This document shows, one piece after another, positions 16,088-61,694 of a DNA stretch of 64,000 nucleotides (position 1 is its first letter; each line of letters starts with the position of its first letter). Both the position numbers and the translations under genes were made by a program. Under the pieces are notes generated by a model that worked only from the letters and a program-made list of their open reading frames with translations, was not told the origin of the DNA and did no database searches. Origin of the DNA: Promethearchaeota archaeon (GTDB taxonomy: Archaea; Asgardarchaeota; Lokiarchaeia; Sigyniarchaeales; SOKP01); the NCBI GenBank assembly GCA_048940445.1, contig JBHLON010000005.1, forward strand, positions 1-64,000. Direction: 5' to 3'.

Positions 16088-17482
16088 TTAATTAACTTTT
16101 TTAGTATTTATTAACATTTTTCTAATTTTGTCGTAAACTTGATTTACTTTATTTTTCCATTCTTCAAAATCATTTATGCTCTTTGGAAAACTTTTGTATA
16201 AATTCGAAATTTCTTTCATTCTAATCCTTAAGTAATTCAAATCTAGTAATAAATTAGGTTGCGTAATCCCTTTTAGAGCTTTATTGACCATGCTTAAAAG
16301 ATTCAAATTCAAACCTCCAGTTGATGAGATCTCTAATATTTCCTCACCTGTGAGTAAATCCTTTTCGAGTCCAAAATTTATTTCAGCGTTATTTAGCACT
16401 TGTAAGGTCATTCTTAGTAAATCTAAAGCAGCAAATTCAGCCCCAAAACTTGTCATGACTTTAGAATTATATTCCCATAAGGTATTAATTGAATAATCTT
16501 CCTTTTGAATCGCCTCTAAAGCCGTTTCTGCAGCAAAAAATCCACCTCTCATCGAAGGATCAATACCCCCACCATGCAAGGGGTTAACTTGAGAAGCGGC
16601 ATCTCCTACTAGCATTATTCCATCATCCGCGCATGACCAAAGAGGTCTTCTTACAGGAACAACACCTCCACCTGAAGAAACTATTTCATAATGTGTTGTT
16701 TTTATGAATTCTTCAAAAACATTCTTTTGATAGTAATCCTTTACTTTGCCTTTTAAATCAGGGAAAGCGCCTATCCCTATATTTATAGAATATTCATTTT
16801 TAGGAAAATACCAGATATATCCACCTGGTGCTTTTTTTTGATCTAAGAAAATTGATATATATTCTGGATCTTTCACCTTAAGGTCTTTGTTTGGAAATTT
16901 AACAATTTCTCTATAACATAAAATTATATCCTTCTGAGAGATATTATTTTCAATTATTTCACTCTTGATATTTTTCCTTAAAGGTGAATGAAAACCAGAA
17001 GCATCAATTACGATTTTAGATTTCAATTCCTTCTTCTCACCTCTTTTTAATTTAACTTTTACACCAGAAACAGATTTTTGTTTATAAATCAAATCTAAAA
17101 CCATTGTATTATCCAAAAATTGCGAAATTCCGTTATCTAAGGCCTCATTTAAGAGTCTTTGTCCAAATTCTTGCCTATTTACTATATATCCTGCCTGTTT
17201 TGGATCCTTAAGGTCAATGCATTTTTTTAAATTTGGTGAATATAATTTAGCACCTTTTATATGGCAAGATAACTCATTTCCCCTTGGATGATTGATTTTT
17301 AGAAATTCAAATATTTCAGTACCAACAGCATCCCCACATATCTTATCTCCAATTTTATTTTTTTCTTTTCTATCAATAAGACACACTTCTAATCCACTTT
17401 TGGCAGCAAAACGAGCTGCTGTAGTTCCGCCTGTGCCTGAACCAACAACAATTACATCAAAAGAATTTTTAATTGTCTCCAT
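16088..17482 (-). CDS. Digeranylgeranylglycerophospholipid (geranylgeranyl) reductase
   Basis: VGSGTGG, KICGDA, PGGYIWYFPK, VGDAASQVNPLHGGGI. Confidence 0.88.
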   Translation of the reverse strand: METIKNSFDVIVVGSGTGGTTAARFAAKSGLEVCLIDRKEKNKIGDKICGDAVGTEIFEFLKINHPRGNELSCHIKGAKLYSPNLKKCIDLKDPKQAGYIVNRQEFGQRLLNEALDNGISQFLDNTMVLDLIYKQKSVSGVKVKLKRGEKKELKSKIVIDASGFHSPLRKNIKSEIIENNISQKDIILCYREIVKFPNKDLKVKDPEYISIFLDQKKAPGGYIWYFPKNEYSINIGIGAFPDLKGKVKDYYQKNVFEEFIKTTHYEIVSSGGGVVPVRRPLWSCADDGIMLVGDAASQVNPLHGGGIDPSMRGGFFAAETALEAIQKEDYSINTLWEYNSKVMTSFGAEFAALDLLRMTLQVLNNAEINFGLEKDLLTGEEILEISSTGGLNLNLLSMVNKALKGITQPNLLLDLNYLRIRMKEISNLYKSFPKSINDFEEWKNKVNQVYDKIRKMLINTKKVN

Positions 17483-17489
17483 TTTGCCA

Positions 17490-18239
17490 TCATTTAATAT
17501 AATAAGTTAATAGAAATATGATTAAAGTTGTTAAAATTGGCACGGTTAAATCATCCCATGTGCTTGGAGAAATCAATTCCACAACAGTAGCTAATGCACT
17601 GGTAATTAGTGATATCATTAAAGCAAATCCGATTGAAATTTGGATTTGAGTCAATGGATTTGTAACTCCCAAAAATGTAAAAACAATAAAGCAAAGAATA
17701 AATCCGCTCCCAAAAAATGATAAAGACCCTTCTAACGTTCTGGTTGATTTTATCCAAGGAATTCTTATATTTATTCGTCCATATCTTTTTCCAATGATCG
17801 ATGCGATTGTATCAGAAACTATCATAAGTAATATCCCTGCAATAGGAAAATATAACTGATTAGGAGCAACGATCACAAAAAATGTTATCAATCCTGCAAG
17901 AGATAGGCAATAATGAAATGGTCCTTGGAGATAACCCACCTTTTCCTCTGCTTCTTCTCCAATTGAATCATAAATTTCTTTCAATTGCTTAACTTTCGAT
18001 TTTTTGGAGCTAAGTAATACTAAAATTGTAAGAGTGCCAGCGATTATAACTGGCCACCATTTCCAAGCATAAAATGGACTTGAAAATACAGACAATCCAG
18101 CAAACAAATGGACTATTTTTCTTGCTTGAAATTTTGAAATTTTCTCCCTTTTTTTTAGCTGAACAGGTATAAGAATAGTAATAAATATGTACAGATATGT
18201 TAGCAATACGATTATTAAGTCAAACAAATAGGGGTTCAT
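17490..18239 (-). CDS. CTP-dependent polyprenol kinase (phytol/dolichol kinase-like), membrane
   Basis: ARKIVH, DTIASIIGKRYG, RTLEGSL, ELISP..DDLTVP. Confidence 0.8.
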   Translation of the reverse strand: MNPYLFDLIIVLLTYLYIFITILIPVQLKKREKISKFQARKIVHLFAGLSVFSSPFYAWKWWPVIIAGTLTILVLLSSKKSKVKQLKEIYDSIGEEAEEKVGYLQGPFHYCLSLAGLITFFVIVAPNQLYFPIAGILLMIVSDTIASIIGKRYGRINIRIPWIKSTRTLEGSLSFFGSGFILCFIVFTFLGVTNPLTQIQISIGFALMISLITSALATVVELISPSTWDDLTVPILTTLIIFLLTYYIK

Positions 18240-50985: not shown

Positions 50986-51087
50986 CGCAGACAGAGGGAT
51001 TTGAACCCTCGAGTGCTTTCACACACCAGCTTATTAGGTAAGTGCTTCTCTCCAAGCTGGCGCCGTACCAGGCTAGGCTATGTCTGC
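50986..51087 (-). tRNA. tRNA-Ser(GGA) with an 18-nt intron at 37/38 (51032-51049)
   Basis: Acceptor GCAGACA/TGTCTGC plus G, anticodon stem CCAGC/GCTGG, long variable arm, GGTTCAAATCC; BHB helix TTGG/CTAA. Confidence 0.93.
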
Positions 51088-54281: not shown

Positions 54282-55352
54282 TTAAAAATATTTAATTATC
54301 AAAGATTTCTTATCTTGAATAATTTCATAATCTCTATTAGTAAAAAGTTTCACTAACTCTAAATTGGTTTTAGTATGACTAGTAATTTCAAGCACTTTAA
54401 TAGATGAAGATTCTTTAACAAAGGCCATGAGTGGGATTAACTGATCACTTAGGTAATTATCGACAGGAATTTGATTGAAAACGTACTTTAAAATTTCCCT
54501 TGACGCCACTTTTCCTAATCTTTCTGAACTTAAATTTCTCTCACCAAGTATGGTCCCCGATGAAATGATTGCTCCTGAATCAGAGTGTGCCCAAAGACAG
54601 ACTCCTACTCCTGGACTGATAGATTTAACCCTAGAACAACTTATATCCATTTCGAAATTTGTATTTCGTTTTATTTCTCGTCTTATTGAATTTTTAATTC
54701 TCTCTCCAATATCCTTCTGTATTAGATTTGAAACAATTATTTCACCCTCAATTAGGTCAATATTTCCTAGTTCGGTAAGGTTGAGTGGCTTTAATTTCAT
54801 TTTAGGTGGTAAGATTTTACATTTAGTCAAGGCTCCTCCTTTCGGGTAAAATCCGAATTCTTCTATTTTAATTACAAGTTCAAGACCACTCATTTTGAAG
54901 AATGGATATGTTACGTTCATTAAGTAATTTAAGCTTGGAGCCCATTTACCAAAAGTACCTCCTCCTTTAATAGAAATCATGATCTGATCATTATGAGAAA
55001 ATCTAAGACTAGAAATCTGAATTGGTTGAATTAATAAGCCAATACTAGCTGCAGTGTCAACATTGACGTTTAAATGATCTTTAATTCTCAGATTTGGGTT
55101 AAAAGTTATTTCCTCTGTACCAATTTTGCATTCTCCATTTATGGCATTAAGTTGACTGCCAGTTAATTTAGCTAAAGTTTGCAATCCTAGAAGATGTTGA
55201 AGGCGTAAACCTCTTTGAGGACGATTAGCCCGAATATTAAATATTCTTATTGGTTGATCAAATAGAAGTGAAAATCCAGCCGCTATACGTAAAATAGAAC
55301 CCCCGCCTTCCCCAAAAGCACCATTAATTTCTAAGTATTTTTTCTTACTCAT
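54282..55352 (-). CDS. rtcA: RNA 3'-terminal phosphate cyclase
   Basis: GEGGGSILR, NIRANRP..GL..QH, GFYPKGG, DQLIP, TSHTKTN. Confidence 0.92.
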   Translation of the reverse strand: MSKKKYLEINGAFGEGGGSILRIAAGFSLLFDQPIRIFNIRANRPQRGLRLQHLLGLQTLAKLTGSQLNAINGECKIGTEEITFNPNLRIKDHLNVNVDTAASIGLLIQPIQISSLRFSHNDQIMISIKGGGTFGKWAPSLNYLMNVTYPFFKMSGLELVIKIEEFGFYPKGGALTKCKILPPKMKLKPLNLTELGNIDLIEGEIIVSNLIQKDIGERIKNSIRREIKRNTNFEMDISCSRVKSISPGVGVCLWAHSDSGAIISSGTILGERNLSSERLGKVASREILKYVFNQIPVDNYLSDQLIPLMAFVKESSSIKVLEITSHTKTNLELVKLFTNRDYEIIQDKKSLIIKYF

Positions 55353-55354
55353 AA

Positions 55355-56506
55355 CTAATTTGTTTCAATATATAGCTGTTTGATTCTTTCTATTCCATTC
55401 TTTTGAATTATTAAATTAGCTACTTCTTTGGGTACTAAACTCTTCCACTCTTGATTGTTTTTATTAATCAATTCTCTAACATTAGAGCCATTATACTTTT
55501 TCTTAAAGATTGTTATTTTCTTCCCCAATTTATATCCCTTGGCCTTAAACAGTTGCCTTACCCATTCACTATTAGAATATATTATATCAAATTCCCCTAC
55601 AATAGATTTAACATGGTTAACCCATTCTTTAGCATTAAATATGTCTGGAATTTCATAAATCTTATATTTCGAGGAACTTATACTTCTTTTTTCTAGAGCG
55701 GTTCTAAGAAATTGGACTCTTTCTTTGCTAGAAAAAGGATTAGTCTTAGTATCAGAGAGTTGAGAGCTACCAATCCCTATTTTAACGAAGTTATGATTTT
55801 TATAAAGTTGATTAAGCACATATAAATGTCCATGATGCAGTGGTTGAAATCTTCCAATAAATAGAGCAATGTCTTTTTTTATAGGATTATTTTTTTGATT
55901 ATCTAACTGGAAATATTTAGTAGGGTCCAATTCAGAAATCTCTTTCCAAATTCTTTTTGAATAATCAATGTATTTTTCATTTTCTAATATATTTTTTAAT
56001 TCTGATTTATTATAAAATCTGCTTTCCTTAACGTCTAATTCTTCTGGATTAGGTTTTAATTCAATATCACATTCTACCAAGCCTAAAAAGATATACGCAA
56101 TTTCCAAGGTTTTTTCATTCGTCTCAGCATTTAGATCATAAAATTTAATTTGAATAAGCGTATTTGGGGATATTCCAAATTCTTCTTGTAATTCTCTTTT
56201 TGCATTATATGTAATATCGTTTATATCGAGATTTTTTTTGTAGATTACATGCCCTGAAGCAGAATCTGTAAAGTATTCTGGAAACTCTTTCTTTTTTTTA
56301 CTTCTTTTTTGGACAAGAAAATGAATGTCATTTGCTGGTGAAATAGCGATTATAAAGACTCGAATAATTAAGTGACTGACTTTTTTTCTGTGAGCCTCTT
56401 GTCTTTCCATAGGATAAACAAATTTTGAAATTTGACCCGAATGTAGATATTTTATATTTTTTTCATCAATGCAAGCTAAGATTTCTTTTTCCATGAGTCT
56501 AGCCAA
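55355..56506 (-). CDS. Nudix (IDI1-like) plus NMN adenylyltransferase (NadM) fusion
   Basis: N-terminal VQKRS..K...SASGHV..AKRELQEEFGI; C-terminal FIGRFQPLHHGH, GIGSSQ, NPFS..ER, NGSNVR. Confidence 0.85.
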   Translation of the reverse strand: MARLMEKEILACIDEKNIKYLHSGQISKFVYPMERQEAHRKKVSHLIIRVFIIAISPANDIHFLVQKRSKKKKEFPEYFTDSASGHVIYKKNLDINDITYNAKRELQEEFGISPNTLIQIKFYDLNAETNEKTLEIAYIFLGLVECDIELKPNPEELDVKESRFYNKSELKNILENEKYIDYSKRIWKEISELDPTKYFQLDNQKNNPIKKDIALFIGRFQPLHHGHLYVLNQLYKNHNFVKIGIGSSQLSDTKTNPFSSKERVQFLRTALEKRSISSSKYKIYEIPDIFNAKEWVNHVKSIVGEFDIIYSNSEWVRQLFKAKGYKLGKKITIFKKKYNGSNVRELINKNNQEWKSLVPKEVANLIIQKNGIERIKQLYIETN

Positions 56507-59161: not shown

Positions 59162-59341
59162 GATCTTCTCGCTCTTAAATATAAATAATTAAATTCTTAA
59201 TAAATTCATTTTGTAGCTTTAATTATAAATATAACAGAGTACAACAATAAAAAAATTTTTATGTTTTTGAAACTTTTGAATTTTTAAGGAAAATATTTTT
59301 TTAAATGTACAGAAGACTTTAGATAAAATTATCATTCTCTT

Positions 59342-59520
59342 GGGCCATTAGCTCAGACTGGTTAACAAGGTTTTAAAAGCTTGGTCAAAAAGCGCAGGTC
59401 TTATAAATGACCGACGGACATACATCAAATTAAATTGTCTGTTATTAGTAAAAACCTGAGTCTCATTGTGTTTCCATCAATGAGTGAAGGAAATCCGGGG
59501 TTCAAATCCCCGATGGCCCA
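59342..59520 (+). tRNA. tRNA-Ile(UAU) with three introns: 59365-59389 (D arm), 59407-59453 (38/39), 59461-59492 (45/46)
   Basis: Acceptor GGGCCAT/ATGGCCC plus A; spliced 75-nt cloverleaf with anticodon arm CAGGT-CTTATAA-ACCTG and T arm CGGGG-TTCAAAT-CCCCG; intron helices TGGT/GTCA, TTAT/GTAA, CCTG/AAGG. Confidence 0.88.
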
Positions 59521-59531
59521 TTTTTAAAATA

Positions 59532-60212
59532 TTATTTATCTAAATTTGTTGAAATTAAGTTTAAAGTCCACTTCTTTATCTGCATAAGATTTTTTAACAA
59601 TCCTGCTACAAGATTTTCAGGAAACGGTTTTTCTTGGTCAAGATTTTGGACTATGGTCATCCACTTATTTAGGGCTAATTGTACTAGACTCGCACCATCG
59701 GCTTCCATAAATATAGGTATTACCGCAGCACTCTCTCTAGCATCCCCAATAGAGAAATAAATCTTTCTATTCATATCTTTTAACATTACTAAATTTGCGC
59801 ATTCATCCAATTTACGTTCTACTAAAATCATTTTAAGTATTTGAGTTTGAATATCTTTATTCTTTTTTATGAATTGTTCTTTTCTGTTGATTATAAGAGG
59901 TTGTATTTCCGTTACAAGTTTATCTCCAGTGGAATCCTTTGGAAAAAATTTAGTCAATTTGATTACATCGTCTAAGACTTCAATATTAATGAATTTTTTA
60001 GTGTTAGAATAAAAAATTGTTTGAAATCCTCCTTTATCTTCACTAGGAGAGAGTTTAATGAAAATATTTCTCATTGTGATTGAATTACAACAATGATATG
60101 CTAATTCGAATAATTCTTTTGAAGTTAATGGGTTATATGGTATTTGAATATCTTTGAAGAGCCATTGTGAAGATATAACATTATTAAACTGATTTAAAAG
60201 TCGATTCTCCAT
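59532..60212 (-). CDS. Hypothetical protein
   Basis: 226-aa ATG-started ORF; no family recognised. Confidence 0.6.
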   Translation of the reverse strand: MENRLLNQFNNVISSQWLFKDIQIPYNPLTSKELFELAYHCCNSITMRNIFIKLSPSEDKGGFQTIFYSNTKKFINIEVLDDVIKLTKFFPKDSTGDKLVTEIQPLIINRKEQFIKKNKDIQTQILKMILVERKLDECANLVMLKDMNRKIYFSIGDARESAAVIPIFMEADGASLVQLALNKWMTIVQNLDQEKPFPENLVAGLLKNLMQIKKWTLNLISTNLDK

Positions 60213-60308: not shown

Positions 60309-61694
60309 TTACTTCTGTACAATTTGATTATAGGCTTTTTCGAATCTATTAACAGCAAGAATTATATCCCTTGAAGTGGTACCTATAGCAGCATTCATTA
60401 TAATATAGGGAATTGTATAGTTTGAACAACAAGTTCCAAATGCACTTTTTTTAGGATTATATACTCTTGGACCAGTAACCCTTAAGTTATATAAAGCTCC
60501 TCCTAATTCTGATAACTGATCTTCTCTTAAATTTTTTAATGTCATTGCTACTGCAACTGGATTAAATACATCTAAAATTCTCTCATTTATCTTTTTAGCG
60601 ACATTCTCAATTTTTTGTTGTAATAATTTTCGATTTTTCTGTTGAGTAGTTATTAATTTCTGATATCCTTTCAGCCCCAAAGAAAGAATTGAAATCAAAA
60701 TGTTAACAATTGGAGTTGCTGAAGCGCGTCCAGCATAAGCTTGACTTATTTTGATAATCTTTTCTTTATGTGGTGAAGCAATTATCGCCCCACCAATAGG
60801 AGTAAGTACATTTTTATCAGTTGATTGAATTATCGCATCTATTCTTCCCGCATCTATTCCTGAGCGAATCAATTTCATCCATTCTGGGCTCTGAACTCCA
60901 TATGCGTTTATTACAATATGAACAAGATCATTTTCCTTGGCAAATTTACTGATTTCTTTAATATCATCATTTTCACGAGGAGGAAAGAAACTTGTAGAAG
61001 AAATAATCGCAAAGCAATCTTTATCTAATTTTAATTTAAGATTTTCAATTGGAATTCGAACAGCATCTCCAAAAATTTTACCCTCAACAATTTTTGGCTT
61101 CACACCTACTAAATCGATGCCCTTTAAAAGAGATTTATGGTCAATTTGGGGTACTAAGACTGTTCTTTTAGATATTAATGCCTTATTATTCCAATTAGGC
61201 CTTAGAGCGCTAAGACACAAAGCTAATGACATTCCAGTACATAATGGTACCACAATTGCACTTTCAATATTTGGTATACCAAATTTCCTCATAAAGTCTC
61301 GTGTTAAATAATTTGTTAATTCATACATAATAGATCCACCAGGGGCTTTTGGTTGAGGAGCTGTTAAAAACCCACTTCTACCTACACCATGACAAAAGCC
61401 TTGTGAAGTTTTAATATGTAATTTAGACGCTATCCTAGCTTCTCGTTCTCCTACTCGTGCTGCTTTAATGTCCTTATCTGTATCCATATTTGAAAGTGTT
61501 TGTAAGAGATATGCGATTTGTTCATCTGTCCAATGTTCTTTTGGAACACTTTTCTGTTCAAATAGAATTTTAATCGGTTTAAGAAATTCTTTTAATACTA
61601 ATTGTCCTCTATTCAATATATTTTCAGGAATAGATGCAGTTTTAAAATATTCAATAATTTTATTAAACTCAATCAATTTAAACACTTTTATCAT
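60309..61694 (-). CDS. spcS: O-phosphoseryl-tRNA(Sec) selenium transferase (SepSecS)
   Basis: RVGEREAR, HGVGRSG..APQPKAPG, CTGMS, DHKS, NAYG, QSTDKN, YAGRAS; adjacent to tRNA-Sec. Confidence 0.95.
   Translation of the reverse strand: MIKVFKLIEFNKIIEYFKTASIPENILNRGQLVLKEFLKPIKILFEQKSVPKEHWTDEQIAYLLQTLSNMDTDKDIKAARVGEREARIASKLHIKTSQGFCHGVGRSGFLTAPQPKAPGGSIMYELTNYLTRDFMRKFGIPNIESAIVVPLCTGMSLALCLSALRPNWNNKALISKRTVLVPQIDHKSLLKGIDLVGVKPKIVEGKIFGDAVRIPIENLKLKLDKDCFAIISSTSFFPPRENDDIKEISKFAKENDLVHIVINAYGVQSPEWMKLIRSGIDAGRIDAIIQSTDKNVLTPIGGAIIASPHKEKIIKISQAYAGRASATPIVNILISILSLGLKGYQKLITTQQKNRKLLQQKIENVAKKINERILDVFNPVAVAMTLKNLREDQLSELGGALYNLRVTGPRVYNPKKSAFGTCCSNYTIPYIIMNAAIGTTSRDIILAVNRFEKAYNQIVQK

What the first reader, a model, noticed from the sequence alone, without database searches (positions are those of the whole stretch)
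59342..59520. tRNA-Ile with a UAU anticodon hidden by three non-canonical introns
Seen: after removing three introns the anticodon loop is CU-UAU-AA (anticodon 59402-59404); none of the introns is at the usual 37/38 site. Known: most archaea read AUA with tRNA-Ile(CAU) modified to agmatidine by TiaS, whereas tRNA-Ile(UAU) is the eukaryotic solution and is rare in prokaryotes. ATA codons are common in this window. Standard tRNA finders could miss or miscall this gene.
Basis: partly seen in the sequence, partly recalled or inferred. Interest (0 to 1): 0.78.

Follow-up and report, generated by a model that had tools for sequence, protein, structure and literature searches.

The report
tRNA intron with built-in ACA box
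This Asgard archaeon reads the isoleucine codon AUA with a eukaryote-style tRNA. The tRNA's middle intron carries a conserved hairpin and ACA motif that probably docks a standard modifying enzyme onto the tRNA's own anticodon before splicing, which would explain how these cells avoid confusing isoleucine with methionine.

Summary
Confirmed: 59342-59520 is a Lokiarchaeia tRNA-Ile(UAU) with introns at 21/22, 38/39 and 45/46. Intron-less alleles fix two junctions; only register 38/39 gives a splice helix (18/18 orthologs). TiaS is absent from the family (0/134) and class, including cultured MK-D1 and L. ossiferum, and present in Heimdallarchaeum. Multi-intron Asgard tRNAs and archaeal UAU tRNAs are known, and this scan saw the gene type on other DNA.

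Not found in papers or earlier notes: the anticodon intron holds an ACA 13 nt after a G that pairs with C32, ending a ~12-bp alternative hairpin with U33-U34-A35-U36 in its loop. That is the spacing at which Cbf5 modifies a uridine, here U34. The motif found hidden Ile(UAU) genes in seven other TiaS-less Asgard families and in 27/201 Nanoarchaeota genomes. It was chance-only in 20 TiaS-positive genomes and absent from 32 other tRNA introns. The lower helix is built in three different ways. Cbf5, Nop10 and Gar1 are present; Pus10 is missing in those Nanoarchaeota.

Best reading (about 0.68): a cis, H/ACA-like platform making pseudouridine at 34 (perhaps 36) before splicing, paralleling the eukaryotic route. 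No RNA data: enzyme and product are inferred.

The parts
59342..59520 (+). tRNA-Ile(UAU) gene, four exons, 75-nt mature body, discriminator A73, CCA not encoded
59342..59364 (+). exon 1 (positions 1-21)
   Evidence: intron-less allele L007
59365..59389 (+). intron 1 at 21/22, relaxed BHB (central helix 4/4, 4 intron pairs)
59390..59406 (+). exon 2 (positions 22-38)
59402..59404 (+). anticodon UAU; U34 = 59402 is the predicted modification target, U36 = 59404 a possible second one
   Evidence: target inferred from spacing
59407..59453 (+). intron 2 at 38/39; splice helix 59401-59404 with 59448-59451
   Evidence: 18/18 orthologs
59397..59412 (+). upper helix of the alternative fold: exon GGUC (29-32; 59397-59400) pairs with intron GACC (59409-59412) around an 8-nt loop holding U33-A38; excludes the splice fold
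   Evidence: pair probability 0.86-0.91; alternative fold -37.6 vs splice fold -35.8 kcal/mol; conservation
59413..59443 (+). intron 2 stem (59413-59420 with 59436-59443), the lower helix (P1 equivalent) stacked under the upper helix
59422..59424 (+). ACA box, 13 nt after the G (59409) that pairs with C32
   Evidence: both A invariant in 88/88 distinct introns of this type, middle C in 86/88
59454..59460 (+). exon 3 (positions 39-45), 7 nt
59461..59492 (+). intron 3 at 45/46, imperfect BHB (central helix 3/4) with a 7-bp intron stem
   Evidence: absent from many alleles
59493..59520 (+). exon 4 (positions 46-73)

Best explanation
A functional tRNA-Ile(UAU) has replaced the TiaS / tRNA-Ile2(CAU) system for AUA codons. 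Introns 1 and 3 are passengers removed at relaxed BHB motifs by a two-subunit splicing endonuclease. Intron 2 is functional. Before splicing, the precursor can fold so that the intron's 5' arm pairs with exon 29-32 and stacks on a lower helix, giving about 12 bp followed by two nucleotides and ACA, with U33-U34-A35-U36 in the apical loop. This mimics both an H/ACA P1 plus guide-target stack and the acceptor plus T-arm with CCA that Cbf5 modifies without a guide. Cbf5 (with Nop10 and Gar1) would bind ACA through its PUA domain and convert U34, possibly also U36, to pseudouridine. That would pre-empt Elp3-type C5 modification and keep the tRNA from reading AUG. The RNA then refolds to the BHB and is spliced. 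Shown here: gene, junctions, TiaS loss, conserved ACA and spacing, complementarity, presence of the enzymes. Inferred: the fold in vivo, Cbf5 as reader, pseudouridine as product, the exact target base, the effect on decoding.
For: ACA sits 13 nt (main type, 86/88, the other two ATA and AAA) or 12-14 nt (19/20 of the short type) after the anchor G, while the loop after it is variable. Two invariant A with a free middle base is the H/ACA box signature (PMC7075261). A 14-nt spacer from target U to ACA (PMC2651775) points at U34. Prediction test: the motif derived from Lokiarchaeia rang in TiaS-less families f9 3/3, f19 17/19, f27 4/4, f28 3/5, f26 1/3, f2 9/14, f3 1/1; 28 fetched hits were real tRNA-Ile(UAU) genes and the 3 hits in 20 TiaS-positive genomes were not tRNAs. 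Control introns: 0/32; the one apparent positive was a miscalled Ile(UAU). The lower helix is built three ways: intron with intron (Loki families f1, f2, f3), intron with exon 21-26 (66/66 pairs in 11 representatives of 8 families, two-sided changes at 20-23), and intron with an upstream intron (G168). The 13-nt plus ACA module survives displacement by 24 and 32 nt in f6 and f7. It is present in 27/201 Nanoarchaeota genomes against 0 reversed-pattern controls; all 27 have Cbf5 and none has Pus10. This genome has Cbf5 with a PUA domain, Nop10, Gar1, Elp3 and two EndA subunits. Cbf5 acts guide-free on acceptor plus T hairpins and binds ACA better than CCA (PMC2018633). An unpaired UVUN with an ACA box yields two pseudouridines. 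A U34 tRNA-Ile in Haloferax gains cnm5U and misreads AUG (PMC3895270), so a safeguard is needed. No intron-less allele with the Loki body was found in JGI metagenomes, while the other introns come and go.
Against: No RNA or biochemical data. There is no P2 stem, K-turn or 5' pocket strand, so it is not a full H/ACA RNA. U33 is also unpaired in most alleles, and archaeal H/ACA RNPs can prefer the 5'-most unpaired U, so the target could be U33. The upper helix shrinks to 2-3 pairs in f2 and f19, and local folding favours the splice fold there. Exceptions exist: G030 and G034 lack ANA, G033 has the helix but UCA, G037 has AAA at 14 nt. In Nanoarchaeota many UAU introns have UCA, GCA, CCA or no box, and Cbf5 presence does not separate them (39/42). 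Genomes are kin and the element may have one origin; the anchor G was picked by pattern, so its 108/108 pairing is conservation, not an independent test. Mycoplasma mobile reads AUA with unmodified U34.
Confidence: 0.68

Rival explanations
1. The ACA hairpin is a docking site, but for another enzyme or product: a different PUA- or THUMP-domain protein that reads it as a tRNA 3' end mimic, or Cbf5 modifying U33 or only U36.
For: The geometry equals acceptor plus T-arm plus NCCA. NCA triplets are common in Nanoarchaeota. U33 is unpaired. Cbf5 presence does not track ACA.
Against: In Asgard both A are invariant, and ACA rather than CCA is what raises Cbf5 affinity. Pus10 is absent in 0/69 Nanoarchaeota searched, including all 27 with ACA. 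The module is confined to UAU tRNAs, where position 34 is the problem.
Confidence: 0.15
2. The excised, circularised intron acts in trans as a minimal H/ACA guide on another precursor or on the spliced tRNA, as the archaeal pre-tRNA-Trp intron does for box C/D methylation (recalled, not re-read).
For: In Loki families f1-f3 the intron alone supplies a P1 stem, the ACA and a GRCY strand antisense to 29-32.
Against: No conserved 5' pocket strand complementary to 36-43 was seen. In most other families the lower helix needs exon 21-26 or a neighbouring intron, which fits a cis fold better.
Confidence: 0.08
3. The alternative hairpin is only a folding switch or splicing-order control, or an ancestral remnant; U34 stays unmodified or is handled by Elp3-type chemistry and ribosome discrimination, as in Mycoplasma mobile.
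For: The two folds are within 2 kcal/mol. Some lineages lack the box. Elp3 is present. Unmodified UAU works in some bacteria.
Against: A switch does not explain an unpaired invariant ACA at a fixed 13-nt distance that is kept across otherwise unalignable introns, after displacement, and with three different helix partners.
Confidence: 0.07
4. The gene is a pseudo-tRNA, or splicing in another register gives a Leu anticodon (UAA here, UAG in relatives).
For: The A-run at the 3' junction makes registers ambiguous in this one sequence. The Atabeyarchaeia-2 ortholog was flagged 'possible pseudo'.
Against: Only 38/39 forms the splice helix in 18/18. The variable loop is short. Outgroups have the same anticodon with a canonical 37/38 intron. 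TiaS is absent, so no other AUA reader is evident.
Confidence: 0.02

Closest known systems
Multi-intron tRNA genes of Asgard archaea (PMC11291895; bioRxiv 10.64898/2026.10.13.758758)
   Same: Several short BHB introns at non-canonical sites, missed by annotators. The Atabeyarchaeia-2 Ile-TAT gene is listed in the supplement as 'possible pseudo'.
   Different: The preprint has no mention of UAU, TiaS, ACA, pseudouridine or modification. Here one intron is argued to be functional.
Archaeal tRNA-Ile(UAU) with TiaS loss: ARMAN/Micrarchaeota, Korarchaeum cryptofilum, Nanoarchaeum equitans (PMC3239211, PMC6000648)
   Same: UAU anticodon, intron in the gene; in ARMAN, no TiaS and no tRNA-Ile2(CAU).
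   Different: Reported as sporadic. Here it covers a whole Asgard class and four further groups. No mechanism for avoiding AUG was given for those organisms.
Eukaryotic tRNA-Ile with pseudouridine at 34 and 36 made by Pus1 on the intron-containing precursor (PMC9602550, including the three-intron C. merolae gene)
   Same: UAU anticodon; intron-dependent wobble modification before splicing is the proposed outcome.
   Different: The enzyme there is stand-alone Pus1 with no ACA box. Here the predicted reader is Cbf5. The Heimdallarchaeum family keeps TiaS, so a parallel origin is more likely.
Archaeal box H/ACA guide RNAs, including Sso1 guiding pseudouridine 35 of pre-tRNA-Tyr (PMC2651775, PMC7075261)
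   Same: ACA/ANA box after a stem, 14-nt spacing to a U, 3' pocket strand antisense to the target's 5' side, anticodon target in a pre-tRNA.
   Different: Those are separate trans-acting RNAs with P2, K-turn and a two-sided pocket. This element is inside the substrate and lacks them.
Guide-free Cbf5 activity at tRNA U55 (PMC2018633)
   Same: About 12 stacked pairs ending in a PUA-bound triplet, with the second U of a hairpin loop as target.
   Different: The substrate here is an alternative fold of anticodon exon and intron, and the triplet is an internal ACA, not the 3' CCA.
Box C/D guide in the archaeal pre-tRNA-Trp intron (from memory, not re-read here)
   Same: A tRNA intron that directs modification of its own tRNA's wobble base.
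   Different: C/D boxes, 2'-O-methylation by fibrillarin, reported to act in trans.

Membership tests
Archaeal BHB-intron tRNA gene | Cloverleaf after intron removal | tested here: met
   75 nt, ARAGORN tRNA-Ile(tat)
Archaeal BHB-intron tRNA gene | BHB or relaxed BHB at each junction | tested here: met
   central helix 4/4, 4/4 and 3/4 for introns 1-3; junctions 1 and 3 also fixed by intron-less alleles
Archaeal BHB-intron tRNA gene | Two-subunit endonuclease able to cut relaxed motifs | tested here: met
   two separate PF01974 genes of about 210 aa; activity not tested
Archaeal BHB-intron tRNA gene | Spliced product exists in vivo | not testable with these tools
   needs tRNA-seq
UAU-type AUA decoding system | UAU anticodon | tested here: met
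UAU-type AUA decoding system | tiaS absent | tested here: met
   0/134 family, 0/26 rest of class, four archaeal controls ring
UAU-type AUA decoding system | tRNA-Ile2(CAU) absent | tested here: inconclusive
   only initiator Met found in this genome, but elongator Met and Ile(GAU) were not found either; complete Atabeyarchaeia lists have no Ile2 while TiaS-positive Freyarchaeia has one
UAU-type AUA decoding system | Charged with Ile, reads AUA and not AUG | not testable with these tools
   needs aminoacylation and ribosome binding
Box H/ACA guide RNA | ACA/ANA box just 3' of a P1 stem | tested here: met
Box H/ACA guide RNA | 14-16 nt from box to a target U | tested here: met
   13 nt to the C32 partner, so 14 to U34 (rule)
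Box H/ACA guide RNA | 3' pocket strand antisense to the target's 5' side | tested here: met
   pairs with 31, 30, 29 in 107, 105, 95 of 108 introns; only 2-3 pairs in f2 and f19
Box H/ACA guide RNA | 5' pocket strand antisense to the target's 3' side | tested here: not met
   no conserved complement of 36-43 by inspection
Box H/ACA guide RNA | P2 stem with K-turn or K-loop | tested here: not met
   none visible in the aligned introns; no Rfam H/ACA match in the window
Box H/ACA guide RNA | Cbf5, Nop10, Gar1 encoded | tested here: met
   L7Ae not searched
Box H/ACA guide RNA | Directs pseudouridylation | not testable with these tools
   needs biochemistry. Verdict: works like an H/ACA platform, is not a member of the family
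Eukaryotic Pus1-dependent tRNA-Ile | Intron at 37/38 | tested here: not met
   38/39 here; 37/38 in outgroup families
Eukaryotic Pus1-dependent tRNA-Ile | Pus1/TruA-family enzyme makes the modification | not tested
   TruA and TruD homologs were not searched

The most novel reading that the evidence does not exclude
TiaS-less Asgard archaea and many Nanoarchaeota share an undescribed self-guiding tRNA intron: a cis H/ACA-like module that makes Cbf5 put pseudouridine in the UAU anticodon before splicing. This would be the missing archaeal route to AUA/AUG discrimination without agmatidine, the H/ACA counterpart of the box C/D tRNA-Trp intron, and a parallel to the eukaryotic intron-dependent modification by another enzyme.
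Probability: 0.65. Interest if true: 0.88.

Novelty: new variant of a known kind. Interest (0 to 1): 0.8.

Why it matters
How archaea with tRNA-Ile(UAU) avoid reading AUG has been left open in the literature read here (PMC3895270). This gives a specific mechanism that can be tested in vitro with short transcripts and recombinant Cbf5, and in two cultured Asgard archaea. It assigns a function to an archaeal tRNA intron, adds a structural bridge between Cbf5's guide-free and guide-dependent modes, and shows a split in AUA decoding inside Asgard. The motif also finds genes that annotators miss or miscall (ARAGORN miscalled 7 of 10 Nanoarchaeota examples).

Tried and rejected
Registers 31/32 to 40/41 for intron 2, including Leu-giving ones: rejected. 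A -2 register for intron 1 also has a 4/4 helix but a poor intron stem and disagrees with the intron-less allele. ARAGORN's other 'Ile(tat)' call in this genome (C72) reads as Val(CAC) with introns. Loose patterns for UAU or CAU tRNAs outside the family were mostly noise. The Rfam tRNA genome search scored only 150 candidates per genome and missed multi-intron genes. Pus10 as reader: not supported in Nanoarchaeota. Correlation of ACA with Cbf5 presence: none. The cross-family shuffle of the lower helix was a weak control (5.4 vs 5.8 of 6 pairs) because most sequences are alike. Viral contigs: 5 hits, none a tRNA. Sequencing runs: no RNA holder listed. Ten literature searches found no report of the ACA element; the library lacks most subscription papers, so a prior description cannot be excluded. 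Korarchaeia and Micrarchaeota genes were not examined. No tree was built, so single versus repeated origin is open.

Full report
Observation. The window lies in a 3.64-Mb, 30% GC genome whose relatives are labelled Promethearchaeota. Two complete genomes of the same order match P. syntrophicum MK-D1 (4,324,194 bp) and Ca. L. ossiferum (6,035,313 bp) by exact length, so the host is a Lokiarchaeia member. Positions 59342-59520 hold a tRNA gene that ARAGORN misses or miscalls as Lys and Rfam misses. Same-genus orthologs lacking intron 1 (L007) or intron 3 (L003, L005, L010, L013) fix those junctions at 21/22 (59365-59389) and 45/46 (59461-59492). For the anticodon intron, only register 38/39 (59407-59453) forms a full BHB central helix in all 18 orthologs scored; 37/38 never does. 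The joined 75 nt are called tRNA-Ile(tat). Among 79 distinct family genes, introns in the D-loop, variable loop and T-loop come and go in ten combinations. An intron-less anticodon arm was found only in 11 metagenome contigs with other gene bodies and bacterial-looking or phage-like neighbours (origin inferred).

Decoding context. The TiaS domain PF08489 is not found in this genome, in any of 134 family genomes, or in the other 26 genomes of the class. It is also missing from families f9, f19, f26, f27 and f28, and present in 184 of 400 phylum genomes and four archaeal controls. f9 is Atabeyarchaeia (coordinates match the published table), f27 contains the 1.418-Mb Odinarchaeum genome, and TiaS-positive f13 contains the 3.08- and 3.3-Mb Heimdallarchaeum genomes; other family names are not established. 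A UAU anticodon-arm pattern rings in 126/134 family genomes. Absence of tRNA-Ile2(CAU) could not be shown for this draft, where elongator Met and Ile(GAU) were not found either. The published lists for complete Atabeyarchaeia have no Ile2 while Freyarchaeia has one. ATA is about twice as frequent as ATG. UAU with TiaS loss is known from ARMAN, and UAU from Korarchaeum and Nanoarchaeum; multi-intron Asgard tRNAs are published. Up to here the finding is a new member of known kinds.

What was not expected. In 108 distinct Asgard anticodon introns, an ACA follows the intron stem after two free nucleotides. In the main type it lies exactly 13 nt after a conserved G in 86/88 cases, and the other two read ATA and AAA; the loop beyond is variable. 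That G and the next three bases are complementary to exon C32, U31, G30, G29 (107, 105 and 95 of 108 for 31, 30, 29) and are partly unpaired in the splice fold. In the window's precursor this alternative hairpin is predicted to be slightly more stable than the splice fold (-37.6 vs -35.8 kcal/mol; pair probabilities 0.86-0.91). It gives 4 + 8 stacked pairs, then ACA (59422-59424), with U33-U34-A35-U36 in the apical loop.

Tests. The motif CTTATA-N-G-R-N11-ACA, taken from Lokiarchaeia, was used as a prediction on 60 TiaS-less and 20 TiaS-positive genomes. It rang in f9 3/3, f19 17/19, f27 4/4, f28 3/5, f26 1/3, f2 9/14 and f3 1/1. Of 36 hits fetched, 28 were tRNA-Ile(UAU) genes with a 37/38 intron and 8 were not tRNAs, including all three from TiaS-positive genomes. 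MK-D1 (L302) and L. ossiferum (L122) carry it. Among other anticodon-loop introns the count was 1/33. That one proved to be an Ile(UAU) gene with an extra 30/31 intron that ARAGORN had read as GAU, in which the upstream intron supplies the helix partner. In non-Loki families the lower helix is formed with exon 21-26: 66/66 pairs in 11 representatives of 8 families, with A-U and G-C alternatives at 20-23 (positions 19-21 can belong to a D-loop intron). In f6 and f7 the same 13-nt plus ACA module sits 24 and 32 nt further into a longer intron. The motif also occurs in 27/201 genomes of the phylum of a Woesearchaeota record, against none for the reversed pattern; ten examined were all UAU tRNA genes. 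Limits: genomes are related; G030, G034 and G033 lack the box and G037 has AAA at 14 nt; many Nanoarchaeota introns keep the helix with UCA, GCA, CCA or no box.

Mechanism. Archaeal H/ACA RNPs hold the ACA in Cbf5's PUA domain, recognise its two A residues, and measure about 14 nt along a 10-12-bp stack to the target U. Thirteen nucleotides to the C32 partner place U34 at that distance. The same geometry matches the acceptor plus T-arm on which Cbf5 acts without a guide, and ACA binds better than CCA. An unpaired UVUN with an ACA box can yield two pseudouridines, which would give the eukaryotic pattern at 34 and 36. The genome encodes Cbf5 with TruB, DKCLD and PUA domains, Nop10, Gar1, Elp3 and two EndA subunits. 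A safeguard is needed because a U34 tRNA-Ile in Haloferax becomes cnm5U and binds AUG; pseudouridine uses C5 for its glycosidic bond and so would block that route (established chemistry). Pus10 is absent from all 69 Nanoarchaeota searched while Cbf5 is in 66, which argues against Pus10, though Cbf5 presence does not separate box-bearing from box-less genes. All catalytic steps are inferred. U33 as target, another 3'-end-reading enzyme, a trans-acting excised intron and a purely structural switch remain open.

Membership and novelty. The element meets the ACA, spacing and 3' pocket criteria of H/ACA RNAs but lacks the 5' pocket strand, P2 and K-turn. It works like an H/ACA platform and is not a member of that family. 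The closest concepts are the trans H/ACA guide for pre-tRNA-Tyr, the box C/D tRNA-Trp intron (from memory) and Pus1-dependent eukaryotic tRNA-Ile. Ten literature searches and the recent Asgard intron preprint gave no mention of it. The scan notes returned describe the gene type but not the ACA module. Because the Heimdallarchaeum family keeps TiaS, the likeness to eukaryotes is more probably parallel than inherited; no tree was built.

Verdict. Gene and anticodon real: about 0.97. ACA hairpin under selection: about 0.95. Cbf5-made pseudouridine at the wobble base: about 0.68. New variant of a known kind; interest 0.8.

Noticed in passing
window 50986-51087 (-): tRNA-Ser(GGA) with an 18-nt anticodon-loop intron; no ACA module.
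   Followed up: partly
L142, L166, L193, L213, L229, L238, L246: Woesearchaeota-type tRNA-Ile(UAU) genes share the anticodon arm of this family, but their 37/38 introns carry a different conserved element: an AAC/GTT hairpin, often followed by TACTTC and UGA/CUGA words. Possibly another guide type.
   Followed up: no
L288-L293, L304-L307, L110, L299, L301, L303: T-loops of many Asgard Ile(UAU) tRNAs are atypical: U56 in f19, C55 in Odinarchaeia and G167, A54 in several f2 genes and f26. Unexplained.
   Followed up: no
L118 vs window 59407: The anticodon intron is at 37/38 in outgroup families and in one family member (G173) but at 38/39 in most of this family, with the ACA spacing kept relative to the C32 partner: possible intron sliding.
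   Followed up: partly
L100:1487-2729: Dense array of about nine tRNA genes in G168 that includes the Ile(UAU) gene miscalled as GAU; possibly a mobile element.
   Followed up: partly
L378 (G404:C34:16637 and 17235-17573): tRNA-Ile(UAU) lies next to cbf5 in one Nanoarchaeota genome. cbf5 neighbours other tRNAs elsewhere, so this may be chance.
   Followed up: no
G000 whole genome: Most tRNA genes found carry non-canonical introns (D-loop, T-loop). Pus10, tRNA-Ile(GAU) and elongator tRNA-Met were not found, probably assembly gaps (Pus10 is in close relative G017).
   Followed up: partly
L382-L392: Intron-less tRNA-Ile(UAU) genes in metagenome contigs, several beside genes that look like ftsH, gyrA and ribosomal S1; probably CPR-like bacteria and phages.
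   Followed up: partly
window 59532-60212 (-), 60309-61694 (-), 55355-56506 (-), 54282-55352 (-): Neighbours: a 226-aa ORF without a Pfam hit ending 11 nt from the tRNA, SepSecS, a NUDIX plus cytidylyltransferase-like fusion, and RNA 3'-phosphate cyclase. No link to the tRNA was shown.
   Followed up: no
window 59290-59305 and 59521-59525: TATA-like TTTAAA about 40 nt upstream and a T-run right after the gene: plausible archaeal promoter and terminator, by inspection only.
   Followed up: no
L187, L213, L229, L238: Record titles (a Nanopelagicaceae bacterium, Methanosarcinales) disagree with the sequence type; they look mislabelled.
   Followed up: no
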